From: a virus | Lineage: Duplodnaviria > Heunggongvirae > Uroviricota > Caudoviricetes | Direction: 5' to 3' (one strand) | IMG/VR virus record: IMGVR_UViG_3300029509_000119 | Coordinates: 63,909 to 127,908 of that record | Length of the DNA stretch: 64,000 nucleotides | Shown: piece by piece, positions 1-58,096 of the stretch | Position numbering within the stretch: the stretch's first letter is position 1 | Layout: each line of letters starts with the position of its first letter | Position numbers and translations under genes: made by a program | The notes under the pieces: generated by a model | Told to the model about the DNA's origin: nothing | The model's input: only the letters and a program-made list of their open reading frames with translations | The model's database searches: none

Positions 1-428
1 TGCCGGGGTGGTCATGCACGTCGGTATCCCCGTAGTCCGCCTCCTTGTCCGAAACGGCGGGACTGGCGGAGATTTCGTCATCCGGTTCGGCGAGAATGCC
101 CGAGATTTCGTCCCATGCGAACGGGAACAGTTTCCCCCGATGGCGCAGGTCGTCCAGTTCCCTGACGAGGATTTCACGCAGTCGGGGGCTGTCCGTCCCA
201 AGGTACGCGGATTCGACGGTTCCGGAATCGGCGTTGAGGTCTATATGGTTGGTCAGGAGGGCTTCTTCGGTGTCTTCGTCTATGACGAGGAGTCCTTCGT
301 CCTCAAGCTCCCGTCCTGCTCGCTCAAGCATTTCGGGGGTGTTGTCTCGGGAGTATGCGGAGATTTTCCGGAACGTCCAGTCGCAGACGCCGAGGGCGTT
401 GGTTTTCGGGTGTATTTGGAGTGTCATC
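1..428 (-). CDS. hypothetical protein, partial (C-terminal part lies before window start)
   Basis: Reverse-complement of the listed + ORF 8..445 in the same codon register gives a normal-composition protein (MTLQIHPKTNALGVCDWTFRKISAYSRDNTPEMLERAGRELEDEGLLVIDEDTEEALL...). ATG at 428..426 and no stop before position 1. The + ORF itself is G/V/F-rich and antisense-like. Confidence 0.45.
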
Positions 429-566
429 CAGAGGTGCTGTCCTAGGACGCTCAGATTGGTGAAGCGTCTGTCTAAGAGGATTTTCTGGTCGATGGTCTTT
501 CTCAAATTTTTCCTTTTGGTCTGGCCTGTGCAGTGGTTTCGTTGTTGTGTGTGGACGTTTTTATTT

Positions 567-592
567 TAGTCATACTGGACATACTCACAAAA
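567..592 (+). promoter_or_regulatory. variant copy of conserved promoter/leader motif (tagtCATACTGGAcATactCACAaaa)
   Basis: Matches the 26-nt consensus found more than 20 times in the window. An inverted partial copy (gtgtggacg = rc of cgtccacac) lies at 549..557. A weaker TGtCATACT element lies at 705..715. Sits upstream of the HTH gene at 813. Confidence 0.35.
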
Positions 593-812
593 TTGGGAGT
601 GTGTCCCGGTTCCATGCGTCGGCACGTGAATCGCTTTGCGGAGCCTGCTTGTTGCGGTCGGTCAGGGCTTGTTTCCCATGTCGTTCGGTTTGCATCCCTC
701 TCTCGTTTGTCATACTAAACAAGTGTTTGTATTTACAGACAATAGCATATAAAAATACACAGTCAAATCTAAAACAAAGCGTTTCGCGCCAAAAACCAGC
801 TATCATAAAAAT

Positions 813-1184
813 ATGGGAAAAAGAAAAAACCAAACCAGTGAGTTCAACCGCCGAATCAACCAACGCATCCTAGCGGAAGCCGGAATCCGACGACTCTCCG
901 CACGGGACATCGCACGGCAACTCGGCAAAAGCCCCAGCTACGTCACCACACGATACAACGAAACCGTCGAATGGCTCCCCGCCGACATCGAAGCACTCGC
1001 CCACGCATGGGACATGGAGCCAGAGGAGCTAATCGCTGGACAAAACGGCTACCAGACAAAACCCTCGACCGTGGAACAACAGCTGCAAGACGTACTACGC
1101 AGAATCAACACGGGAGACCTCACCTTGGCCGCGAACCACGACCCGAACAAACAGGCGGAAGCGGAAAGCGAGGACGATTGCTGA
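813..1184 (+). CDS. XRE-family helix-turn-helix transcriptional regulator (ImmR-like)
   Basis: ATG at 813. 'LSARDIARQLGKSPSYVTTRYN' is a typical HTH_XRE motif. Immediately upstream of an ImmA-like peptidase gene in the canonical order. Confidence 0.75.
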   Translation: MGKRKNQTSEFNRRINQRILAEAGIRRLSARDIARQLGKSPSYVTTRYNETVEWLPADIEALAHAWDMEPEELIAGQNGYQTKPSTVEQQLQDVLRRINTGDLTLAANHDPNKQAEAESEDDC

Positions 1185-1228: not shown

Positions 1229-1705
1229 ATGAGCTACGAGTGCATGCGACGCGCCGTGGAACTCACCCGACCGGCACCACACATATTCGAAGAGGAACTG
1301 CCCGAAAACATCAACGGCGTATACGACGAGTTGACGCACATCATCATCATCGACCCACGGCTGAACGAACGGCAAAAACGATGCACGCTGGCCCACGAAC
1401 TGCTCCACTGGACGCATGGGGACGCCCGTTGCCAGAGCCAATACGACGACAAGGCCGAAATTCATGTGCGCAAGGAGACCGCGACACTGCTCATCAATCC
1501 GTTCGACTACATACAGTCCGAACGAGTGTACGAGGGTGAAGCGTTCCTCGTGGCCGTCGATTTGAACGTGACGGTCGGAGTGTTGGAGGACTACAGGTCG
1601 ATTCTGGAAGACGCTCCCACATTGGCGGTCGAACCGAAGGGTTGTCCTCAATCCAGTTTTTCAGCGAGTCCGACGCTTTCCGCAGCCTTGCGCCTGCACT
1701 CCTGA
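1229..1705 (+). CDS. ImmA/IrrE-family zinc metallopeptidase
   Basis: ATG at 1229 within ORF 971..1705 (the upstream part of that ORF is R-rich junk). HEXXH motif 'AHELLHWTHGD'. ImmA/IrrE-type domain paired with the upstream HTH. Confidence 0.75.
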   Translation: MSYECMRRAVELTRPAPHIFEEELPENINGVYDELTHIIIIDPRLNERQKRCTLAHELLHWTHGDARCQSQYDDKAEIHVRKETATLLINPFDYIQSERVYEGEAFLVAVDLNVTVGVLEDYRSILEDAPTLAVEPKGCPQSSFSASPTLSAALRLHS

Positions 1706-7545: not shown

Positions 7546-8805
7546 TTAGTCGTTCGGACCCTCATTGGGGTCTCCGGTGACGGAACCATCGTCTGAATTC
7601 TGGGTTGGGCTGTCGCCGTCATCGGATGGCTGGCCGTCGGACGAACCGGAGTCGCCGACACCGTTGGTGGAATCCGACGAACCGGAATCGGACGCCGCAT
7701 CCTCCTCGTCGTCACTGCCGGACGAGCCAATCAGCGAACGGTCGATGGCATTGTTGAACGCCTTCAACGTGGTCAGACTGCCCTCCGCGCCCCAGTCAAC
7801 GATTTTCGCGCTGCCACGGGTCGGATTGTGGATAAGAACCGTGACGCTCGTATCCACGTTGCCCACCGACTTGATGTCCGCGCTTGGATTGTTCGCGGCA
7901 CTCGCGTCAACCTTCTTCTCATAGGGTTTGAACGAGATGCTGACGCTCGCCGCAGCCCATTCGGGATTGTCGGACTTGTTCTTCTTGTCAACGACCTTGC
8001 CGTCCTTGGTGCATTGCACCAGCCATTCGACGGACGAGTTCAGATACGAACCCAAGCTTGCTGGCTGGTACACGTGCTCGCTGTTCGGGTCTCCGACAAG
8101 TACGGTCAACGCGTTGGGGTCTTTGCCGACGTACGCCTTTGCCCACGCGCCGACCACGGTCGTCAGGCTCGTGTTCTGGTCAAGCTGAACGTACCCGTCG
8201 GGACGATACGTGTCGGTGCCGCTGTCCGAAGTGACTGTCTTGGGCAGCACGGTCGGCGTTCCCACCGCAGTAGCCACTCCGTCCGTGACGGCGACAAGCT
8301 GGGTGATGTCCCTCGTGCTTCCGTCCGACTTGTCGGTAAGGGACATCTGATGGCTCCAATATTGGGTGACTTCCCCATCGGAACCGTCCGAAGTGGAAGT
8401 GCCCACTTCAGTGGCACCGTTCCACCACAGGTTCGCATACCCGTATTGGAACGCGCCATTGTCGTCATCCAACCAACCGTATACGGATTGCAACGCGACC
8501 TGCTTGCCGGGCTTGTCGCCGTTAACCTCCTTGAGCTTCGAACTCATATACGAACCCATGTCGGTCAACGTGTTGATTGCACGGACGGAAATCATCGGCG
8601 CGACCAGTCCGGTGCAGACGAACAGGACGATGAGAACCTTCCACTTCCGAGTGTTCTTCAACGCCTTCTTCCAAGCGGTGAGTTCTATTTCGTTCTTGCG
8701 TTCCTTCTCGTCGGCGAACAGGTCGGTCTCATCGTTCGGATTCTGCCACGCCTTCTGCTGTCCTATCGGCTGATTGCCGTTCTTGTCTTTCTTGTTTCCG
8801 AACAC
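7546..8805 (-). CDS. membrane-anchored surface protein with S/D/G-rich acidic tail
   Basis: 419 aa. Cytoplasmic N-terminus, TM 'WKVLIVLFVCTGLVAPMISV', large extracellular domain, low-complexity 'SGSDDEEDAASDSGSSDS...' C-terminus. Confidence 0.55.
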   Translation of the reverse strand: MFGNKKDKNGNQPIGQQKAWQNPNDETDLFADEKERKNEIELTAWKKALKNTRKWKVLIVLFVCTGLVAPMISVRAINTLTDMGSYMSSKLKEVNGDKPGKQVALQSVYGWLDDDNGAFQYGYANLWWNGATEVGTSTSDGSDGEVTQYWSHQMSLTDKSDGSTRDITQLVAVTDGVATAVGTPTVLPKTVTSDSGTDTYRPDGYVQLDQNTSLTTVVGAWAKAYVGKDPNALTVLVGDPNSEHVYQPASLGSYLNSSVEWLVQCTKDGKVVDKKNKSDNPEWAAASVSISFKPYEKKVDASAANNPSADIKSVGNVDTSVTVLIHNPTRGSAKIVDWGAEGSLTTLKAFNNAIDRSLIGSSGSDDEEDAASDSGSSDSTNGVGDSGSSDGQPSDDGDSPTQNSDDGSVTGDPNEGPND

Positions 8806-23910: not shown

Positions 23911-24594
23911 ATGATGCCAGACTTCACCAATTGGGGTTTCAACAACAACCAACAGTCGGAGCAGGACAACGGTTATGGTTCCGGCAATTATTTCGAACCG
24001 GAACAGCCTGAGTCCGGGCTTGTTCAGGACGGCGTGGATTCCGCCGCTGAGACTCCGACTCCAGCCGACGATGAGTCTGTTGGCACGACTGACGAGCCGA
24101 CCGAAACGGGAGACAAGCCGAAAGGCAAATCCAAGGTTCGTGCAAACCGTAAGCCTCGTGAAAAAACCATGCCGCATATCGAGGAACAGTTCGGAAAGAA
24201 ACTCATTCCTCTCATCAAATCGTTGGATGATGAACGTGTGATTGCTCTCGCCAAGGCGTTGACCGACACGAAGAAAAGCACTCCGGAAGCCGTGTTGGAT
24301 GCGTTGACCGAGCCGAAGAACCAACGTCGAATCTCTGATTTCACGTCCGCCTTAGAGGGTTTGACCACCGCCGAGCCGGGCATGATTGCAGCGGAGGTGA
24401 CGCTTGTGTTCGCACAGGGCAAGGATATGACGAACCTGCTGTTCTCCGTGTTGAACGCGGTCGCTCCGGAGAAGAATTTCGGACGTCCGGTTGACGACCA
24501 GTCTCCTATCGGAATGCGTAAGAACCTGAGCAAGATTGTCGATAACTGGGGTGACGGAGTTGACCTTTCCGTCATTGACGAGCTGAAAATCTAA
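23911..24594 (+). CDS. hypothetical protein with acidic low-complexity N-terminus
   Basis: ATG at 23911 with a GAAAGAAGG RBS. 227 aa. The antisense ORF 23821..24324 is G/V/R-rich. Confidence 0.5.
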   Translation: MMPDFTNWGFNNNQQSEQDNGYGSGNYFEPEQPESGLVQDGVDSAAETPTPADDESVGTTDEPTETGDKPKGKSKVRANRKPREKTMPHIEEQFGKKLIPLIKSLDDERVIALAKALTDTKKSTPEAVLDALTEPKNQRRISDFTSALEGLTTAEPGMIAAEVTLVFAQGKDMTNLLFSVLNAVAPEKNFGRPVDDQSPIGMRKNLSKIVDNWGDGVDLSVIDELKI

Positions 24595-24615
24595 GTTTCC
24601 AACTCCAACATCATT

Positions 24616-24648
24616 GAGGGGAGCCGACCGTGATGGCCGACTCCCCTC
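24616..24648. terminator. bidirectional GC-rich hairpin between convergent genes
   Basis: gaggggagccgacc-gtgat-ggccgactcccctc (12 of 14 bp). Between the stop of 23911..24594 (+) and the stop of 24657..25427 (-). Confidence 0.5.
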
Positions 24649-24656
24649 TCTTGCAT

Positions 24657-25427
24657 TCAAGACCGGTTTTTACGGCGTAAACGTACCGCATCTTCGGACG
24701 AGTACACGCCGAACGGGCTGATGGTCACACTGTATTTCGTCATCCGGTACGTCCACTCGGTCTGACTGTCGTTCAACTCTTTGAACCTCTTCAACAGGCT
24801 TTGCGCGGAAAGGCTCTGGCTGCTCGCCGGAAGCAATGATGGAAGGTCCTCACGTTCGATGATGAGACGATGGTTTTCCGGACAATACAATGCGGACAAC
24901 ACGAGCAAGTCTATACCGATGGCGCTTCCCGCGTTCGGATACAGGCACTTCAGCGGGAGCTGGCGGACGTTTCTTGTCATCATGCGGACGAACTGCTCCG
25001 TGAATGTGATTCTACGATGTTCGACTGTCAGGAAATCCGGGCTGATGTCCGTATGCGACACGGGAATTATCTTATTCCCATCCATGTCGGTGAACTGTAT
25101 TTCGGTGAGCATGAGCAGCCGGTCACGTACCGTGGTTCGTCCGTCGCCGCCACTGTTCAACCCGCATTTGTTCGCCAGATAGAAGAAGTCCTCTCCGATG
25201 GTGAGGGTTCTGGTTTCCGCATTCCATTCACGGCTAGGAGTGTTGACGAGCGTGGTGATGATGATGCTTAACAGACGTGGGGCTCGTCCCGAGAACGTCT
25301 GCTTGTCTTTCGCACGGTATGGGGCGAACAGTGGGTATGATTCCGCTGTGACGTATCCGATGTCGTAGCCGAGTATCGTATGATAATCGACTTTCAGGGT
25401 TTCCAACCCGTAGGTTCCTTCGTTCAT
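24657..25427 (-). CDS. hypothetical protein (256 aa)
   Basis: Normal composition. Last gene of the minus-strand operon that begins at the promoter copy at 28526..28553. Confidence 0.5.
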   Translation of the reverse strand: MNEGTYGLETLKVDYHTILGYDIGYVTAESYPLFAPYRAKDKQTFSGRAPRLLSIIITTLVNTPSREWNAETRTLTIGEDFFYLANKCGLNSGGDGRTTVRDRLLMLTEIQFTDMDGNKIIPVSHTDISPDFLTVEHRRITFTEQFVRMMTRNVRQLPLKCLYPNAGSAIGIDLLVLSALYCPENHRLIIEREDLPSLLPASSQSLSAQSLLKRFKELNDSQTEWTYRMTKYSVTISPFGVYSSEDAVRLRRKNRS

Positions 25428-25571
25428 GGTGTCTCCTTAATGATGTGGACGGAGTGTGGTTTCCGTCGATAAGACAATCATACCCCCACGTTAAGGTTGG
25501 AAGATGAAAAAAGCCGGTGGTCAATATCAACCACCGGACTAAAAATCCTAGATTTTCCTCCTATCCGCCTT

Positions 25572-28525: not shown

Positions 28526-28553
28526 TTTTTTGTGGACGATTCCAGTATAACAA
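28526..28553 (-). promoter_or_regulatory. copy of conserved promoter/leader motif (minus strand)
   Basis: Reverse complement is TTGTTATACTGGAATCGTCCACAAAAAA. Upstream of the 8-gene minus-strand operon 28480..24657. Confidence 0.5.
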
Positions 28554-28680
28554 AGAGTATTGCCATACGCAAGCCCGGAACCTCGCGACCTTCCGCCGTT
28601 TGCATACCCCCACATAATGTGTTAAGCTGGACGCGCCCACATACAAACCAGTCAACAGGACAAGGAAAAAGACGCAGACA

Positions 28681-52909: not shown

Positions 52910-53169
52910 ATCTTGCACCATGCCCGTTCTGCGACGGCACCGTGCATCTCGTGTTCGACCGCGATTTCCGGCGCGGCGTCCGCTATGGAATCGTCCACGA
53001 ACGGCCTTGCTCGCTTTTGCCGACCTTATGGGCGGCGTACGGGGTTGAATCCGATACGCTCGCCCGCTGTTGGAACCAACGGTATGGGGTGGCGAACCGG
53101 CTGCGAGCATTGGGTGAGGATGGGCTGGCTGACAAGCTGGCTTACGAGGGGGTTGGTTTACCTTCGTGA
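52906..53169 (+). CDS. Lar-family restriction-alleviation protein-like
   Basis: GTG start overlapping the upstream stop. 'LAPCPFCDGTVHL ... ARCWNQRYG' resembles the Lar N-terminal zinc-ribbon signature (CPFCG). Confidence 0.5.
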   Translation: MNLAPCPFCDGTVHLVFDRDFRRGVRYGIVHERPCSLLPTLWAAYGVESDTLARCWNQRYGVANRLRALGEDGLADKLAYEGVGLPS

Positions 53170-56873: not shown

Positions 56874-56921
56874 TTGCCATAGCGCTGGGGTTGATTCCCC
56901 GCCTACCTTTAAACACTCTCG

Positions 56922-56948
56922 CGTTATATTGGGTTTGTCCACATATGG
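56922..56948 (+). promoter_or_regulatory. copy of conserved promoter/leader motif
   Basis: gCGTTATATTGGGTTTGTCCACATATGG. Confidence 0.45.
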
Positions 56949-56960
56949 TAATATGAGGTC

Positions 56961-57494
56961 ATGACTGGCATAACCCATGAAAAAGAAATCCTGATGATTA
57001 GAATCGGATACGCACCCCGACGAGGCCGCGTATACTTCCAACCGCGAACCGTAATGCAGGAATACCTCCGATTCAGCGAACAGCACGACGACCACATCCT
57101 CTGGAAATGCGGCATCATCGGAGTCATGCGAAACGTGGAGCAGGTCATCCTGTACGCGCACGACGAAGACCTCATGCTCATAGGCGAAGTCGCCGGTTTC
57201 GGAAGCCCCTACAATCCACGGACATGGGACGAGGGAAGCTTCTACCAATGTCCTAAACCTTGGTCGATGGAACCCGCGAAATACTGGATAGCGTTGGATA
57301 ATTTGAGACCGTTGGAGGACTTCGACCCCGACATGTACGAACTCGCAGCCGGTAAGGACGAAGGCAAGCCGCTGTCTCTCGTGTTCGAACGGAAGGTGCC
57401 CATGCTCACCATGGCGGATTCCGAAGGCAATCGCAGGAAGGTGACGACTTCCCGTCGTTCCGTCCTTACGCGCGTCCGACTCCGAGAAGTGTGA
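56961..57494 (+). CDS. hypothetical protein
   Basis: 177 aa with an ATG start. The antisense ORF 56637..57515 is antisense-like in composition. Confidence 0.5.
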   Translation: MTGITHEKEILMIRIGYAPRRGRVYFQPRTVMQEYLRFSEQHDDHILWKCGIIGVMRNVEQVILYAHDEDLMLIGEVAGFGSPYNPRTWDEGSFYQCPKPWSMEPAKYWIALDNLRPLEDFDPDMYELAAGKDEGKPLSLVFERKVPMLTMADSEGNRRKVTTSRRSVLTRVRLREV

Positions 57495-57527
57495 ATGATT
57501 CCAGTATTTGGACATATTTTACGCAAA

Positions 57528-57554
57528 CCACTATACTGGAATCAGTCACATAAG
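57528..57554 (+). promoter_or_regulatory. copy of conserved promoter/leader motif, preceded by an inverted copy of its core at 57489..57520
   Basis: ccaCTATACTGGAATCAGTCACATAAG. Upstream 'gtgtgaatgattccagtat' is the reverse complement of the core (17 of 18 identical to the + copy), giving an ~18-bp inverted repeat with a ~25-bp spacer. Confidence 0.5.
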
Positions 57555-57568
57555 AGTAAGGATATACC

Positions 57569-58096
57569 ATGACGGAAACAACACTCATGGACAGACGAGC
57601 GGTATTCATGCGAATCAGCACGGAATCCGACCTCATCGGCAAAGCGAGCGTCAAACCCGACAAGAACACCATCATCCGCTACAACTGGCGCGAAGCGGAC
57701 AGCATGCTGGACGAAATCGTCAAACATGCGGAACAGAACGACGGCAAGGTCATCATCCCGTTCGACAGCATCGTCTCCGTCCGTTCATTGGACATCTGCT
57801 CCCGATTCATCCTCTGGCGCACCGATGGAAAATATCTGGTCGGAAAACTGTTCGAATCCGGAGAGAACTACAAGCACGGGATGGACGATAGGGACGGCTA
57901 TACGACCCCGAAAGCGTTGCGGGCCAAAGCGGCGTCCCGCTGGGTGAAGCTCAGCGAAGTCCAGAATGGAGAGGACTTCCCGTTCGAGGATTGGTATATC
58001 GAAGCGTACCGTCACCGCTCCCACAGCAAAACCCCTTTGGGAGAGGCTTTGCAGCACAGCCATATGAACGTCATGTTCGCATACGAGGAGGATTGA
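57569..58096 (+). CDS. hypothetical protein
   Basis: 175 aa. RBS AGTAAGGATATACC. Confidence 0.5.
   Translation: MTETTLMDRRAVFMRISTESDLIGKASVKPDKNTIIRYNWREADSMLDEIVKHAEQNDGKVIIPFDSIVSVRSLDICSRFILWRTDGKYLVGKLFESGENYKHGMDDRDGYTTPKALRAKAASRWVKLSEVQNGEDFPFEDWYIEAYRHRSHSKTPLGEALQHSHMNVMFAYEED

What the first reader, a model, noticed from the sequence alone, without database searches (positions are those of the whole stretch)
545..592. Inverted partial copies of the motif core beside full copies at two sites suggest a dimeric operator
At 57489..57554 the core ACTGGAATCaTTCACAC occurs inverted (gtgtgaatgattccagtat), 25 bp upstream of the full + copy. The two arms match 17 of 18, making a long inverted repeat across the 3' end of CDS 56961..57494. 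At 545..592 an inverted partial core (gtgtggacg = rc of cgtccacac) lies 10 bp upstream of the variant copy at 567..592, itself upstream of the ImmR-like HTH gene. The inverted copies lack a usable -10. What is conserved there is therefore the GGAAT..TTCACAC half, pointing to a protein-binding site rather than promoter function alone.
Basis: seen in the sequence. Interest (0 to 1): 0.6.

Follow-up and report, generated by a model that had tools for sequence, protein, structure and literature searches.

The report
Back-to-back copies of a plasmid promoter motif
The two "inverted partial copies" are real and conserved, but they look like oppositely oriented copies of an already published Bifidobacterium megaplasmid promoter motif placed back to back, not the two halves of one dimeric operator.

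Summary
The sequence observations hold. At 57490-57507 and 57533-57550 there is an 18-nt inverted repeat, 17 of 18 complementary, with 25 nt between the arms. At 549-557, gtgtggacg is the reverse complement of the motif box.

The motif is TGnTAnnnT-GG-N4-purine-TYCACAY-AAAA. It has 25 copies in the window and is the same family as the 34-bp motif over the -10 published for pMP7017 (PMC10832533). It is directional: 23 of 25 copies lie 4-50 nt upstream of a start codon on their own strand.

At 545-592 the inverted copy does have a -10. It reads TAAAAT-N5-CGTCCACAC in the canonical register, with a TTGTGA -35, 48 nt upstream of a leftward replication-initiator-like gene. It is conserved in six lineages. 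This site is therefore a pair of overlapping divergent promoters.

At site 2 the inverted copy faces no gene. Its -10 is weakened (AATACT, a hexamer seen only there). It is kept in at least 10 lineages but is absent from four, including pMP7017.

The gaps between opposed copies are 3, 22, 23-25, 55, 75 and 144 bp, and most copies stand alone. A fixed dimeric operator is not supported. A trans-acting factor that binds the box remains plausible but untested. Interest is low to moderate.

The parts
549..568 (-). Leftward motif copy: -10 TAAAAT (568-563), five A, then box CGTCCACAC (557-549). Predicted start near 556.
   Evidence: Exact match to TANNNT-N5-YGTYCACAY. PWM score 8.2 bits. Conserved in six lineages.
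585..590 (-). -35-like TTGTGA of the leftward promoter. On the + strand this is the TCACAA box of the rightward copy.
   Evidence: The sigma-70 scan gives TTGTGA-16-TAAAAT, 9 of 12. TTG is kept at this position in L018 and L025.
565..594 (+). Rightward variant motif copy: -10 CATACT (571-576), GG, predicted start A583, box CTCACAA. No ORF start within 60 nt. The ImmR-like gene lies about 230 nt downstream.
   Evidence: PWM 18.4 bits. Kept in all six lineages, as TATACT in L018 and L025. CATACT is also used at gene-proximal copies elsewhere.
2..508 (-). 5' part of the leftward gene (TTG start 508-506), a phage-type replication-initiator-like protein.
   Evidence: The ORF runs off the window. 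The full-length homologue L012:1143-2720 hits PHROG 3171 at E 7.5e-12. N-termini are 82% identical.
727..742 (.). Unique 16-bp palindrome TTGTATTTACAGACAA, the probable operator of the ImmR-like protein.
   Evidence: One match in the window against 0.01 expected. The outer TTGT/ACAA are invariant in five lineages.
739..766 (-). Second leftward sigma-70-like promoter, TTGACT-16-TGcTATTGT. It overlaps the palindrome.
813..1184 (+). ImmR-like HTH gene.
   Evidence: Weak HTH_24 hit at 19.8 bits, below the cut-off. PHROG 2967, transcriptional regulator. Homologous to pMP7017 24932..25486. Followed by an ImmA-like gene.
1229..1705 (+). ImmA/IrrE-like metallopeptidase gene.
   Evidence: Peptidase_M78 at 30.3 bits, above the cut-off of 22. 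46% identical to the pMP7017 ImmA/IrrE protein.
57489..57507 (-). Site 2 left arm: a leftward full core ATACTGGAATCATTCACAC with the hexamer AATACT (57508-57503). It overlaps the stop codon of CDS 56961..57494, and no gene follows it.
   Evidence: (16.7 bits).
57509..57537 (+). Full sigma-70-type promoter of the downstream gene: TGGACA-17-TATACT.
   Evidence: 10 of 12 in the scan. TTG is kept 17-18 nt from TATACT in relatives.
57526..57555 (+). Site 2 right arm: the rightward motif copy, predicted start A57544, then SD AAGGA and ATG 57569.
   Evidence: PWM 31.3 bits. ORF start 17 nt after the core.
56919..56948 (+). The upstream gene's own motif copy, so CDS 56961..57494 has a separate promoter.
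   Evidence: PWM 17.9 bits, ATG 16 nt downstream.
28526..28646 (.). Third divergent pair: 28526-28555 (-) at 44.0 bits and 28617-28646 (+) at 13.5 bits, 75 bp between the cores. Each faces a gene.
   Evidence: The homologous pair is seen in L131.

Best explanation
Both loci hold two independent, oppositely oriented copies of one directional promoter module that is specific to pMP7017-type Bifidobacterium megaplasmids.

The module is an extended -10 (TGnTAnnnT), an invariant GG, a purine at the predicted +1, an invariant CACA at +4 to +7, and an A-tract leader.

At 545-592 the two copies sit back to back with their -10 hexamers 2 bp apart. The leftward one (TTGTGA-16-TAAAAT-N5-CGTCCACAC) starts the replication-initiator-like gene at 508. 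The rightward one points toward the ImmR/ImmA-like genes. Each box lies in the other promoter's -35 region, so RNA polymerase, or any factor bound to one box, should exclude use of the other (inferred).

At 57489-57551 the rightward copy is the promoter of gene 57569. The leftward copy is an extra module with a weakened -10 (AATACT) lying at about -38 to -56 of that promoter. It most likely still binds whatever reads the module, either polymerase giving a weak antisense start near 57496 or the unknown box-binding factor. In that way it would tune the neighbouring promoter (inferred).

Shown: sequence, register, orientation, conservation. Inferred: transcription starts, binding, mutual exclusion.
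For: - Same family as the published motif AWAYATGYTATACTGAATATGTCCACATAAAAWA, which overlaps the -10 of 19 pMP7017 promoters mapped by RNA-seq. My PWM finds 31 copies in pMP7017.
- There are 25 copies in the window against about 0.3 expected. 23 of 25 are followed within 4-50 nt by an ORF start on the same strand.
- Position 19 is a purine in 19 of 19 copies. T7, A8, T9, A10, T12, G13, G14, C22 and C24 are invariant.
- The site 1 minus-strand copy fits the strict composite pattern, and the scan calls its -35/-10. It is followed after 43-48 nt by the TTG start of a conserved rep-like gene.
- The 47-bp site 1 block is 83% identical across six lineages, against 46% in the flank.
- All opposed pairs in relatives are divergent, with variable gaps.
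- The site 2 left arm matches the family consensus at 17-19 of 19, at least as well as it matches its partner at 15-18 of 19.
- There is no covariation between the site 2 arms.
Against: - There are no transcription-start data for this plasmid.
- The site 1 minus-strand copy scores only 8.2 bits, and its GGAAT is replaced by AAAAA. In five of six lineages its box is shifted by 1 nt.
- The + copy at site 1 has no gene within 200 nt.
- The site 2 left arm has no TGn, no -35 and an A at the otherwise invariant first -10 position. AATACT is never used at a gene-proximal copy. It may therefore not fire at all, which fits a pure binding site better.
- The 23-25 bp gap at site 2 is conserved, as an operator geometry would be. 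The conserved -35 TTG explains part of this.
Confidence: 0.55

Rival explanations
1. One reading: the opposed cores are the two halves of a composite operator. A plasmid-encoded regulator binds them cooperatively, by dimerisation or short looping, and represses the promoter between or beside them.
For: - The arms are conserved at both sites.
- The site 2 arm keeps the core but not the promoter-specific extras, and its hexamer AATACT is unique to it.
- The site 2 gap is held at 23-25 bp, so the centres are about 42-44 bp, or 4 helical turns, apart.
- The consensus of the box differs in concert between pMP7017 (GAATATGTCCACAT) and this plasmid (GGAATYGTTCACAC). That argues for a plasmid-encoded reader.
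- The authors of PMC10832533 also propose a transcription-factor site.
Against: - 22 of 25 copies have no partner.
- The gaps are 3, 22, 23-25, 55, 75 and 144 bp.
- The site 1 arms are not complementary to each other, and the left one is a complete promoter with a gene.
- The site 2 arm is absent in four lineages that keep the downstream promoter.
- The box almost never occurs away from a -10 in fixed register. That is unusual for a free-standing operator.
Confidence: 0.2
2. The site 2 inverted repeat acts through structure. In read-through RNA from gene 56961..57494, or in transferred single-stranded DNA, the arms form a 19-bp hairpin that stabilises or ends the upstream transcript, or forms a single-strand promoter.
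For: - The predicted hairpin is -27.5 kcal/mol, z = -5.2.
- 91% of cells pair across 10 lineages.
- An A-to-C change that improves pairing appears in both L037 and L047.
Against: - Pairing is no better than in shuffles (419 of 500 reach it), and the covariation score is below the shuffle mean.
- The left arm follows the family consensus, not its partner.
- There is no T-run after the stem, and no terminator-like site is called there on the + strand.
- There is no Rfam family, only a sub-threshold miRNA hairpin hit.
- Site 1 has no complementary arms.
Confidence: 0.1
3. The inverted elements have no function of their own. The site 2 arm would be a relic of a rearranged gene cassette, and the site 1 box a chance resemblance or a Rep-binding iteron.
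For: - The site 2 arm was lost in several lineages without loss of the downstream promoter.
- CGTCCACAC alone is not rare, with 3 matches against 0.88 expected.
- L051 duplicates the GTGTGGACGG box in tandem, as iterons are.
Against: - The composite pattern at site 1 has 0.02 expected matches per window.
- Both elements are more conserved than the adjoining non-coding DNA.
- The site 2 arm is at 19 of 19 consensus in three lineages whose proteins are only 74-98% identical to the window's.
- There is no local array of the box in the window.
Confidence: 0.1

Closest known systems
[quoted passage not shown] 2024, PMC10832533)
   Same: - The same architecture and largely the same sequence: TGY-TATACT-G(A/G)A..GT(C/T)CACA(T/C)-AAAA.
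- Tens of copies per plasmid, upstream of start codons.
- Restricted to this megaplasmid family.
   Different: - The consensus here is GGAATYGTTCACAC, against GAATATGTCCACAT in pMP7017.
- The paper does not describe opposed pairs, and the site 2 arm is absent from the orthologous pMP7017 locus.
- The pMP7017 immR-like upstream region has no motif copy.
Overlapping divergent promoter pairs in repressor/target control regions, such as tetR-tetA of Tn10 and immR-xis of ICEBs1 (from my own knowledge, not tested here)
   Same: - Site 1 lies between a repressor-type gene with an ImmA-like partner and a divergently transcribed gene.
- Two promoters are so close that their polymerase footprints must overlap.
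   Different: - The opposed elements here are copies of a plasmid-wide module, not a locus-specific palindromic operator.
- A separate palindrome at 727-742 is the better candidate for the local repressor's site.
Global plasmid regulons with an operator fixed at the -10, such as KorA/KorB of IncP plasmids (own knowledge)
   Same: Many promoters of one plasmid share a conserved element at or over the -10. This suggests one plasmid-encoded regulator for a large share of the genes.
   Different: The KorA and KorB operators are palindromes bound by dimers. This motif is asymmetric and strictly oriented with transcription.
Stoperators of cluster A mycobacteriophages: asymmetric 13-bp repressor sites, many per genome, oriented with transcription (own knowledge)
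   Same: An actinobacterial mobile element with an asymmetric site, tens of copies in short intergenic gaps, and orientation tied to the direction of transcription.
   Different: - Stoperators are not fused to a -10.
- No binding protein is known here.
- The ImmR-like protein has a different candidate operator.

Membership tests
pMP7017-type megaplasmid promoter motif (PMC10832533) | A conserved block that overlaps a TATACT-type -10 and continues into GTYCACAY plus an A-tract, in a fixed register. | tested here: met
   - 14 exact matches to TANNNT-N5-YGTYCACAY against 0.02 expected, including 549-568 (-).
- 25 PWM hits.
- The site 2 left arm fits except for the first T of the hexamer.
pMP7017-type megaplasmid promoter motif (PMC10832533) | Lies within about 60 bp upstream of a translation start on the same strand. 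| tested here: inconclusive
   Met for 23 of 25 copies and for the site 1 leftward copy (43-48 nt to TTG 508). Not met for 565-594 (+) or for 57485-57514 (-).
pMP7017-type megaplasmid promoter motif (PMC10832533) | Confined to pMP7017-related megaplasmids. | tested here: met
   - The window's proteins match pMP7017 and B. longum megaplasmids at 31-46%.
- The exact motif has one stray hit in 185,579 species genomes.
- It occurs in 80+ listed stretches (110 matched in all), nearly all from contigs of 100-217 kb in IMG/VR.
- Exception: L001 is a chromosome-like contig with 2 copies.
pMP7017-type megaplasmid promoter motif (PMC10832533) | Drives transcription, with the start just downstream of the -10. 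| not testable with these tools
   RNA-seq evidence exists only for pMP7017.
Palindromic operator bound by a dimeric regulator | Two inverted half-sites at one fixed, short spacing. | tested here: not met
   - The gaps are 3, 22, 23-25, 55, 75 and 144-145 bp.
- The site 1 arms are not complementary.
Palindromic operator bound by a dimeric regulator | The paired arrangement is present at most regulated promoters. | tested here: not met
   - 3 pairs among 25 copies in the window.
- 2 pairs among 31 copies in pMP7017.
Palindromic operator bound by a dimeric regulator | A protein that protects both arms. | not testable with these tools
   No binding data exist. Candidates are only inferred.
Intrinsic terminator or structured RNA element | A stem supported by covariation. 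| tested here: not met
   The covariation score is 0.055 against a shuffle mean of 0.078. One pair has a change on both sides, as in the shuffles.
Intrinsic terminator or structured RNA element | A T-run after the stem, or a match to a curated RNA family. | tested here: not met
   - No terminator-like site on the + strand at 57551 or beyond.
- No Rfam match at gathering score.
Back-to-back divergent promoters | A -10 (and a -35 or TGn) on each strand, each facing a gene. | tested here: inconclusive
   - Site 1: leftward yes. The rightward copy has a -10, but its gene is about 230 nt away.
- The 28.5-kb pair: yes.
- Site 2 leftward copy: weak hexamer, no gene.

The most novel reading that the evidence does not exclude
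The box at +1 to +8 is the operator of a still unidentified megaplasmid-encoded factor that co-evolves with it, and the opposed copies are functional control points.

At site 1 they would form a toggle in which the replication-initiator promoter and the rightward promoter exclude each other. At site 2 a promoter-dead copy at -38 to -56 would act as an auxiliary site, for cooperative repression or activation, or as an antisense insulator at the end of the upstream gene.

That would make this a plasmid-wide, orientation-dependent regulon of about 25 promoters with two kinds of specialised paired sites.
Probability: 0.2. Interest if true: 0.55.

Novelty: new member of a known kind. Interest (0 to 1): 0.3.

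Why it matters
These megaplasmids of 160-220 kb are common in human gut Bifidobacterium. About a quarter of their genes sit behind this motif, and its reader is unknown.

The site 2 left arm is a natural core-only probe, because it carries the box without a normal promoter. Site 1 links the motif to the replication-initiator gene and the ImmR/ImmA-type switch.

The arrangement itself, divergent promoters sharing a family motif, is ordinary.

Tried and rejected
- Near-identity DNA search of both regions against PLSDB found no match. Only distant protein-level relatives turned up: pMP7017 and B. longum megaplasmids.
- The scan of species genomes for the ImmR-like protein found nothing. The scan for the exact motif gave one stray hit.
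- The hairpin or terminator reading of site 2 was rejected for lack of covariation and of a T-run.
- Rfam gave nothing.
- The small ORFs between 585 and 720 on either strand were rejected as genes, because that stretch is only about 46% conserved and is rearranged in relatives.
- An iteron reading of GTGTGGACG was rejected because there is no local array in the window. L051 does have a tandem duplication.
- The ImmR-like protein as reader of the motif was not rejected but weakened. It has its own unique conserved palindrome, and its pMP7017 orthologue's upstream region has no motif copy.
- An internal dyad within each copy (TGTnnACA, or ATGTCCACAT in pMP7017) was noted. It covers only 8-10 of about 26 conserved positions, so it cannot explain the asymmetric motif.
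- The supplement of PMC10832533 holds no start-site coordinates.
- I did not use structure prediction or the large protein searches beyond two homologue searches. They would not decide the question.

Full report
**What is in the sequence**

The region 541-600 reads gttgttgtgtGTGTGGACGtttttATTTTAgtCATACTggacatACTCACAAaattgggagt. The region 57480-57568 reads ...gaagTGTGAATGATTCCAGTATtTGGACAtattttacgcaaaccacTATACTGGAATCAGTCACAtaagagtaaggatatacc, followed by ATG.

The arms are 57490-57507 and 57533-57550, 17 of 18 complementary, with 25 nt between them. It finds no inverted repeat at 480-680. At site 1, therefore, the left element is inverted with respect to the family consensus and not with respect to its neighbour.

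**The motif family**

The 17-mer core has 11 matches at up to 3 mismatches, against 0.24 expected. A 30-column weight matrix gives 25 hits of at least 8 bits, against about 0.3 in shuffles.

The aligned copies read TGnTAnnnT-GG-(A/G)(A)(T)(Y)-purine-T-Y-CACA-Y-AAAA. T7, A8, T9, A10, T12, G13, G14, C22 and C24 are invariant in 19 of 19 copies. Position 19 is a purine in 19 of 19 and lies seven bases after the -10, which is where a start site is expected.

Twenty-three of the 25 copies are followed within 4-50 nt by an ORF start on their own strand, usually with a Shine-Dalgarno sequence. Minus-strand copies lie in the part of the window where genes run leftward, and plus-strand copies lie where genes run rightward. 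The two exceptions are the two elements of the finding's sites that face no nearby gene: 565-594 (+) and 57485-57514 (-).

**It is a known motif**

The window encodes DnaB, a ParA-like ATPase, a VirB4-like ATPase and an N6/N4 methylase. Its proteins match the Bifidobacterium breve megaplasmid pMP7017 and B. longum megaplasmids at 31-46% identity. There is no near-identical DNA in PLSDB.

The pMP7017 transcriptome paper (PMC10832533) reports a conserved 34-bp motif, AWAYATGY-TATACT-GAATATGTCCACATAAAAWA. It overlaps the -10 of six highly expressed genes and 13 further sites. The authors propose it as a transcription-factor site and state that it is absent from bifidobacterial chromosomes. My matrix finds 31 copies in pMP7017 with that consensus.

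The window's version (GGAATYGTTCACAC) differs from the pMP7017 version (GAATATGTCCACAT) at the same positions in nearly all copies of each plasmid. This concerted drift argues, by inference, for a plasmid-encoded reader and not host polymerase alone.

**Site 1 (545-592)**

On the minus strand the sequence is TTGTGA-16 nt-TAAAAT-AAAAA-CGTCCACAC.

- The simple sigma-70 scan calls TTGTGA(590-585)/TAAAAT(568-563) on its own.
- The stretch 549-568 is an exact match to TANNNT-N5-YGTYCACAY. That pattern has 14 matches in the window against 0.02 expected, and the other 13 are canonical copies.
- Forty-three to 48 nt further on, after AAAAGGAAAAA, is the TTG at 508. Gene callers use this TTG as the start of the homologous gene in relatives.
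- That gene is a phage-type replication-initiator homologue (PHROG 3171, E 7.5e-12).

The statement that the inverted copy lacks a usable -10 is therefore wrong here.

The rightward copy has the hexamer CATACT, which is used at gene-proximal copies elsewhere. In L018 and L025 it is TATACT.

The 47-bp block GTGTGGAC(G)GnTTTTATTyTAGTyATACTGG...TYCRCAA is kept in six lineages: the window, L012, L026, L051-53, L018 and L025. Mean pairwise identity is 0.83, while the adjoining 100-120 bp toward the HTH gene is 0.46 and is rearranged.

The two -10 hexamers are 2 bp apart, and each box lies in the other's -35 region. This is a pair of overlapping, divergent promoters.

The gene to the right is ImmR-like by context. 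It has a weak HTH hit, a PHROG transcriptional-regulator hit and a pMP7017 homologue. It is followed by a Peptidase_M78/ImmA gene. Just upstream it has its own conserved, unique palindrome, TTGTATTTACAGACAA, at 727-742. That palindrome overlaps a second leftward promoter. This makes the ImmR-like protein a weaker candidate reader of the 25-copy motif.

**Site 2 (57489-57551)**

The rightward copy lacks TGn but has a good -35: TGGACA-17-TATACT, 10 of 12. It is followed by AAGGA and ATG 57569. The upstream gene, 56961..57494, has its own motif copy at 56919-56948.

The leftward copy keeps the whole 19-mer, but its hexamer is AATACT. It has no TGn, no -35 and no A-tract, and no ORF follows it.

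I collected the orthologous intergenic region from assemblies and metagenomes. The left arm is present in at least 10 distinct sequences whose proteins are 74-99% identical to the window's. It is degenerate in L007. It is absent in L001, L004/5, L006 and pMP7017, all of which keep the rightward promoter.

- Among four deep lineages the left arm is 0.83 identical, the spacer 0.67 and the right arm 0.86.
- The arm matches the family consensus at 17-19 of 19 (19 of 19 in L027, L010 and L009). It matches its own partner at 15-18 of 19.
- Its variable positions are the same as those that vary among forward copies.
- Among 177 distinct strong copies gathered from relatives, AATACT occurs nine times. 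All nine are this arm.

The arm is therefore a conserved copy of the motif core, but it is not a normal promoter.

**Is it an RNA or DNA hairpin?**

A transcript spanning both arms could fold (-27.5 kcal/mol, z -5.2). On ten lineages, however, pairing (91%) is no higher than when partners are shuffled (419 of 500 shuffles reach it). The covariation score (0.055) is below the shuffle mean (0.078). No T-run follows the stem, and Rfam has nothing. The complementarity follows from both arms matching one consensus.

One hint the other way is that an identical A-to-C change just after the stop codon, in the L037 group and in L047, makes the arms more alike. This could be gene conversion.

**Is it a dimeric operator?**

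The window has three opposed pairs among 25 copies. The third is 28526-28555 (-) with 28617-28646 (+), and each of its copies faces a gene. pMP7017 has two pairs among 31 copies, both between divergent genes.

In 728 kb of related plasmid DNA fetched through the motif there are 426 hits. All 18 distinct opposed pairs within 150 bp are divergent, and none is convergent. Their gaps are 22, 55, 75 and 144-145 bp. With site 1 (3 bp) and site 2 (23-25 bp), there is no common geometry. Most copies work alone.

The downstream half of the motif almost never occurs away from a -10 in fixed register. The motif is a single oriented unit. It is not a half-site that can be combined freely.

**Mechanism I commit to**

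The opposed elements are separate copies of the published promoter module.

Site 1 is a bidirectional control region for the replication-initiator-like gene and for a rightward transcript toward the immR/immA-like genes. The two promoters overlap too closely to be used at once.

Site 2 is a promoter plus an extra copy with a defective -10 at about -38 to -56. That extra copy still binds the module's reader. Either way the copy would modulate the adjacent promoter.

The steps that are shown are sequence, register, orientation, gene context and conservation. The steps that are inferred are the start sites, the binding and the mutual exclusion.

My confidence in the overall reading is 0.55. The composite-operator model keeps about 0.2, mainly because of site 2.

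**Novelty and interest**

The motif is published. This is a diverged member in an uncultured relative from the human gut, on contigs of 160-223 kb. The paired arrangements have not been described, but they are what divergent genes sharing a promoter family would give. The only unusual item is the conserved core-only copy at site 2, which would be a useful probe for the unknown reader. Interest is 0.3.

Noticed in passing
window 727-742 (and 739-766, minus strand): A unique 16-bp palindrome, TTGTATTTACAGACAA, lies upstream of the ImmR-like gene. Its outer TTGT/ACAA are invariant in five lineages. It overlaps the -10 of a second leftward promoter, TTGACT-16-TGcTATTGT. It is probably the ImmR-like protein's own operator.
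   Followed up: partly
window 2-508 (-); L012:1143-2720: The leftward gene next to the finding is a phage-type replication-initiator homologue (PHROG 3171/8064/345). It has no Pfam hit and no tblastn homologue in pMP7017.
   Followed up: partly
L051 about 7735-7790 (minus strand of the locus): One relative carries a 24-bp tandem duplication of the GTGTGGACGG box (TTATGTTGTGTGGACGGGTTTTA, two copies) at the site 1 position. This looks iteron-like.
   Followed up: no
window 597-606: A further conserved box, G(A/G)G(T/C)GTGTCC, lies just downstream of the + copy in four lineages and is degenerate in two. It sits at about -45 to -55 of the leftward promoter.
   Followed up: no
pMP7017 (NZ_KM406416.1) 24813-24932: The region upstream of the orthologous immR-like gene has no motif copy. 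It has a perfect 18-bp inverted repeat, TGCGTGTTCCTCGTCGCA / TGCGACGAGGAACACGCA, flanking TGTTATAAC. The divergent 95-aa gene 24526..24813 is a paralogue of the HTH protein.
   Followed up: partly
pMP7017 173702-173731 (-): A strong motif copy (28.3 bits) points leftward into the 3' end of a + strand gene (172584..173600) and has no annotated minus-strand gene after it. This is a possible second example of a site 2-type orphan antisense copy. The PLSDB annotation is incomplete, so a gene may be missing.
   Followed up: no
L001 9926-10543 (GCA_963597015.1, 324-kb contig): The two-gene cassette homologous to 56961..58096, with two motif copies, sits on a chromosome-like contig beside gyrA, relA and dUTPase genes. 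This is at odds with the published statement that the motif is absent from chromosomes. It may be an integrated fragment or a misassembly.
   Followed up: no
L037/L039/L044 and L047, the position equivalent to window 57496: The same A-to-C change one base after the stop codon appears in two separate clades. It makes the left arm identical to the right arm at that position. It could be gene conversion between the arms or parallel selection.
   Followed up: partly
window 52987-53000: An orphan downstream half-box, GGAATCGTCCACGA (16.1 bits), lies inside a coding region without a -10 and is also present in L010. It is probably coding-constrained or a relic.
   Followed up: no
L055-L134 (IMG/VR contigs of 100-217 kb): Relatives of this megaplasmid are filed as viral contigs in IMG/VR. 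The co-directional gene array at window 34.3-41.4 kb has a motif copy before almost every gene (8 copies in 7 kb), an unusually dense set of promoters.
   Followed up: no
L003 3155-4741; L006 3460-3906; L025 1-293 and 5269-6372: IS200/IS605 TnpA/TnpB (Cas12f-like) insertions interrupt the conserved gene order in several relatives.
   Followed up: no
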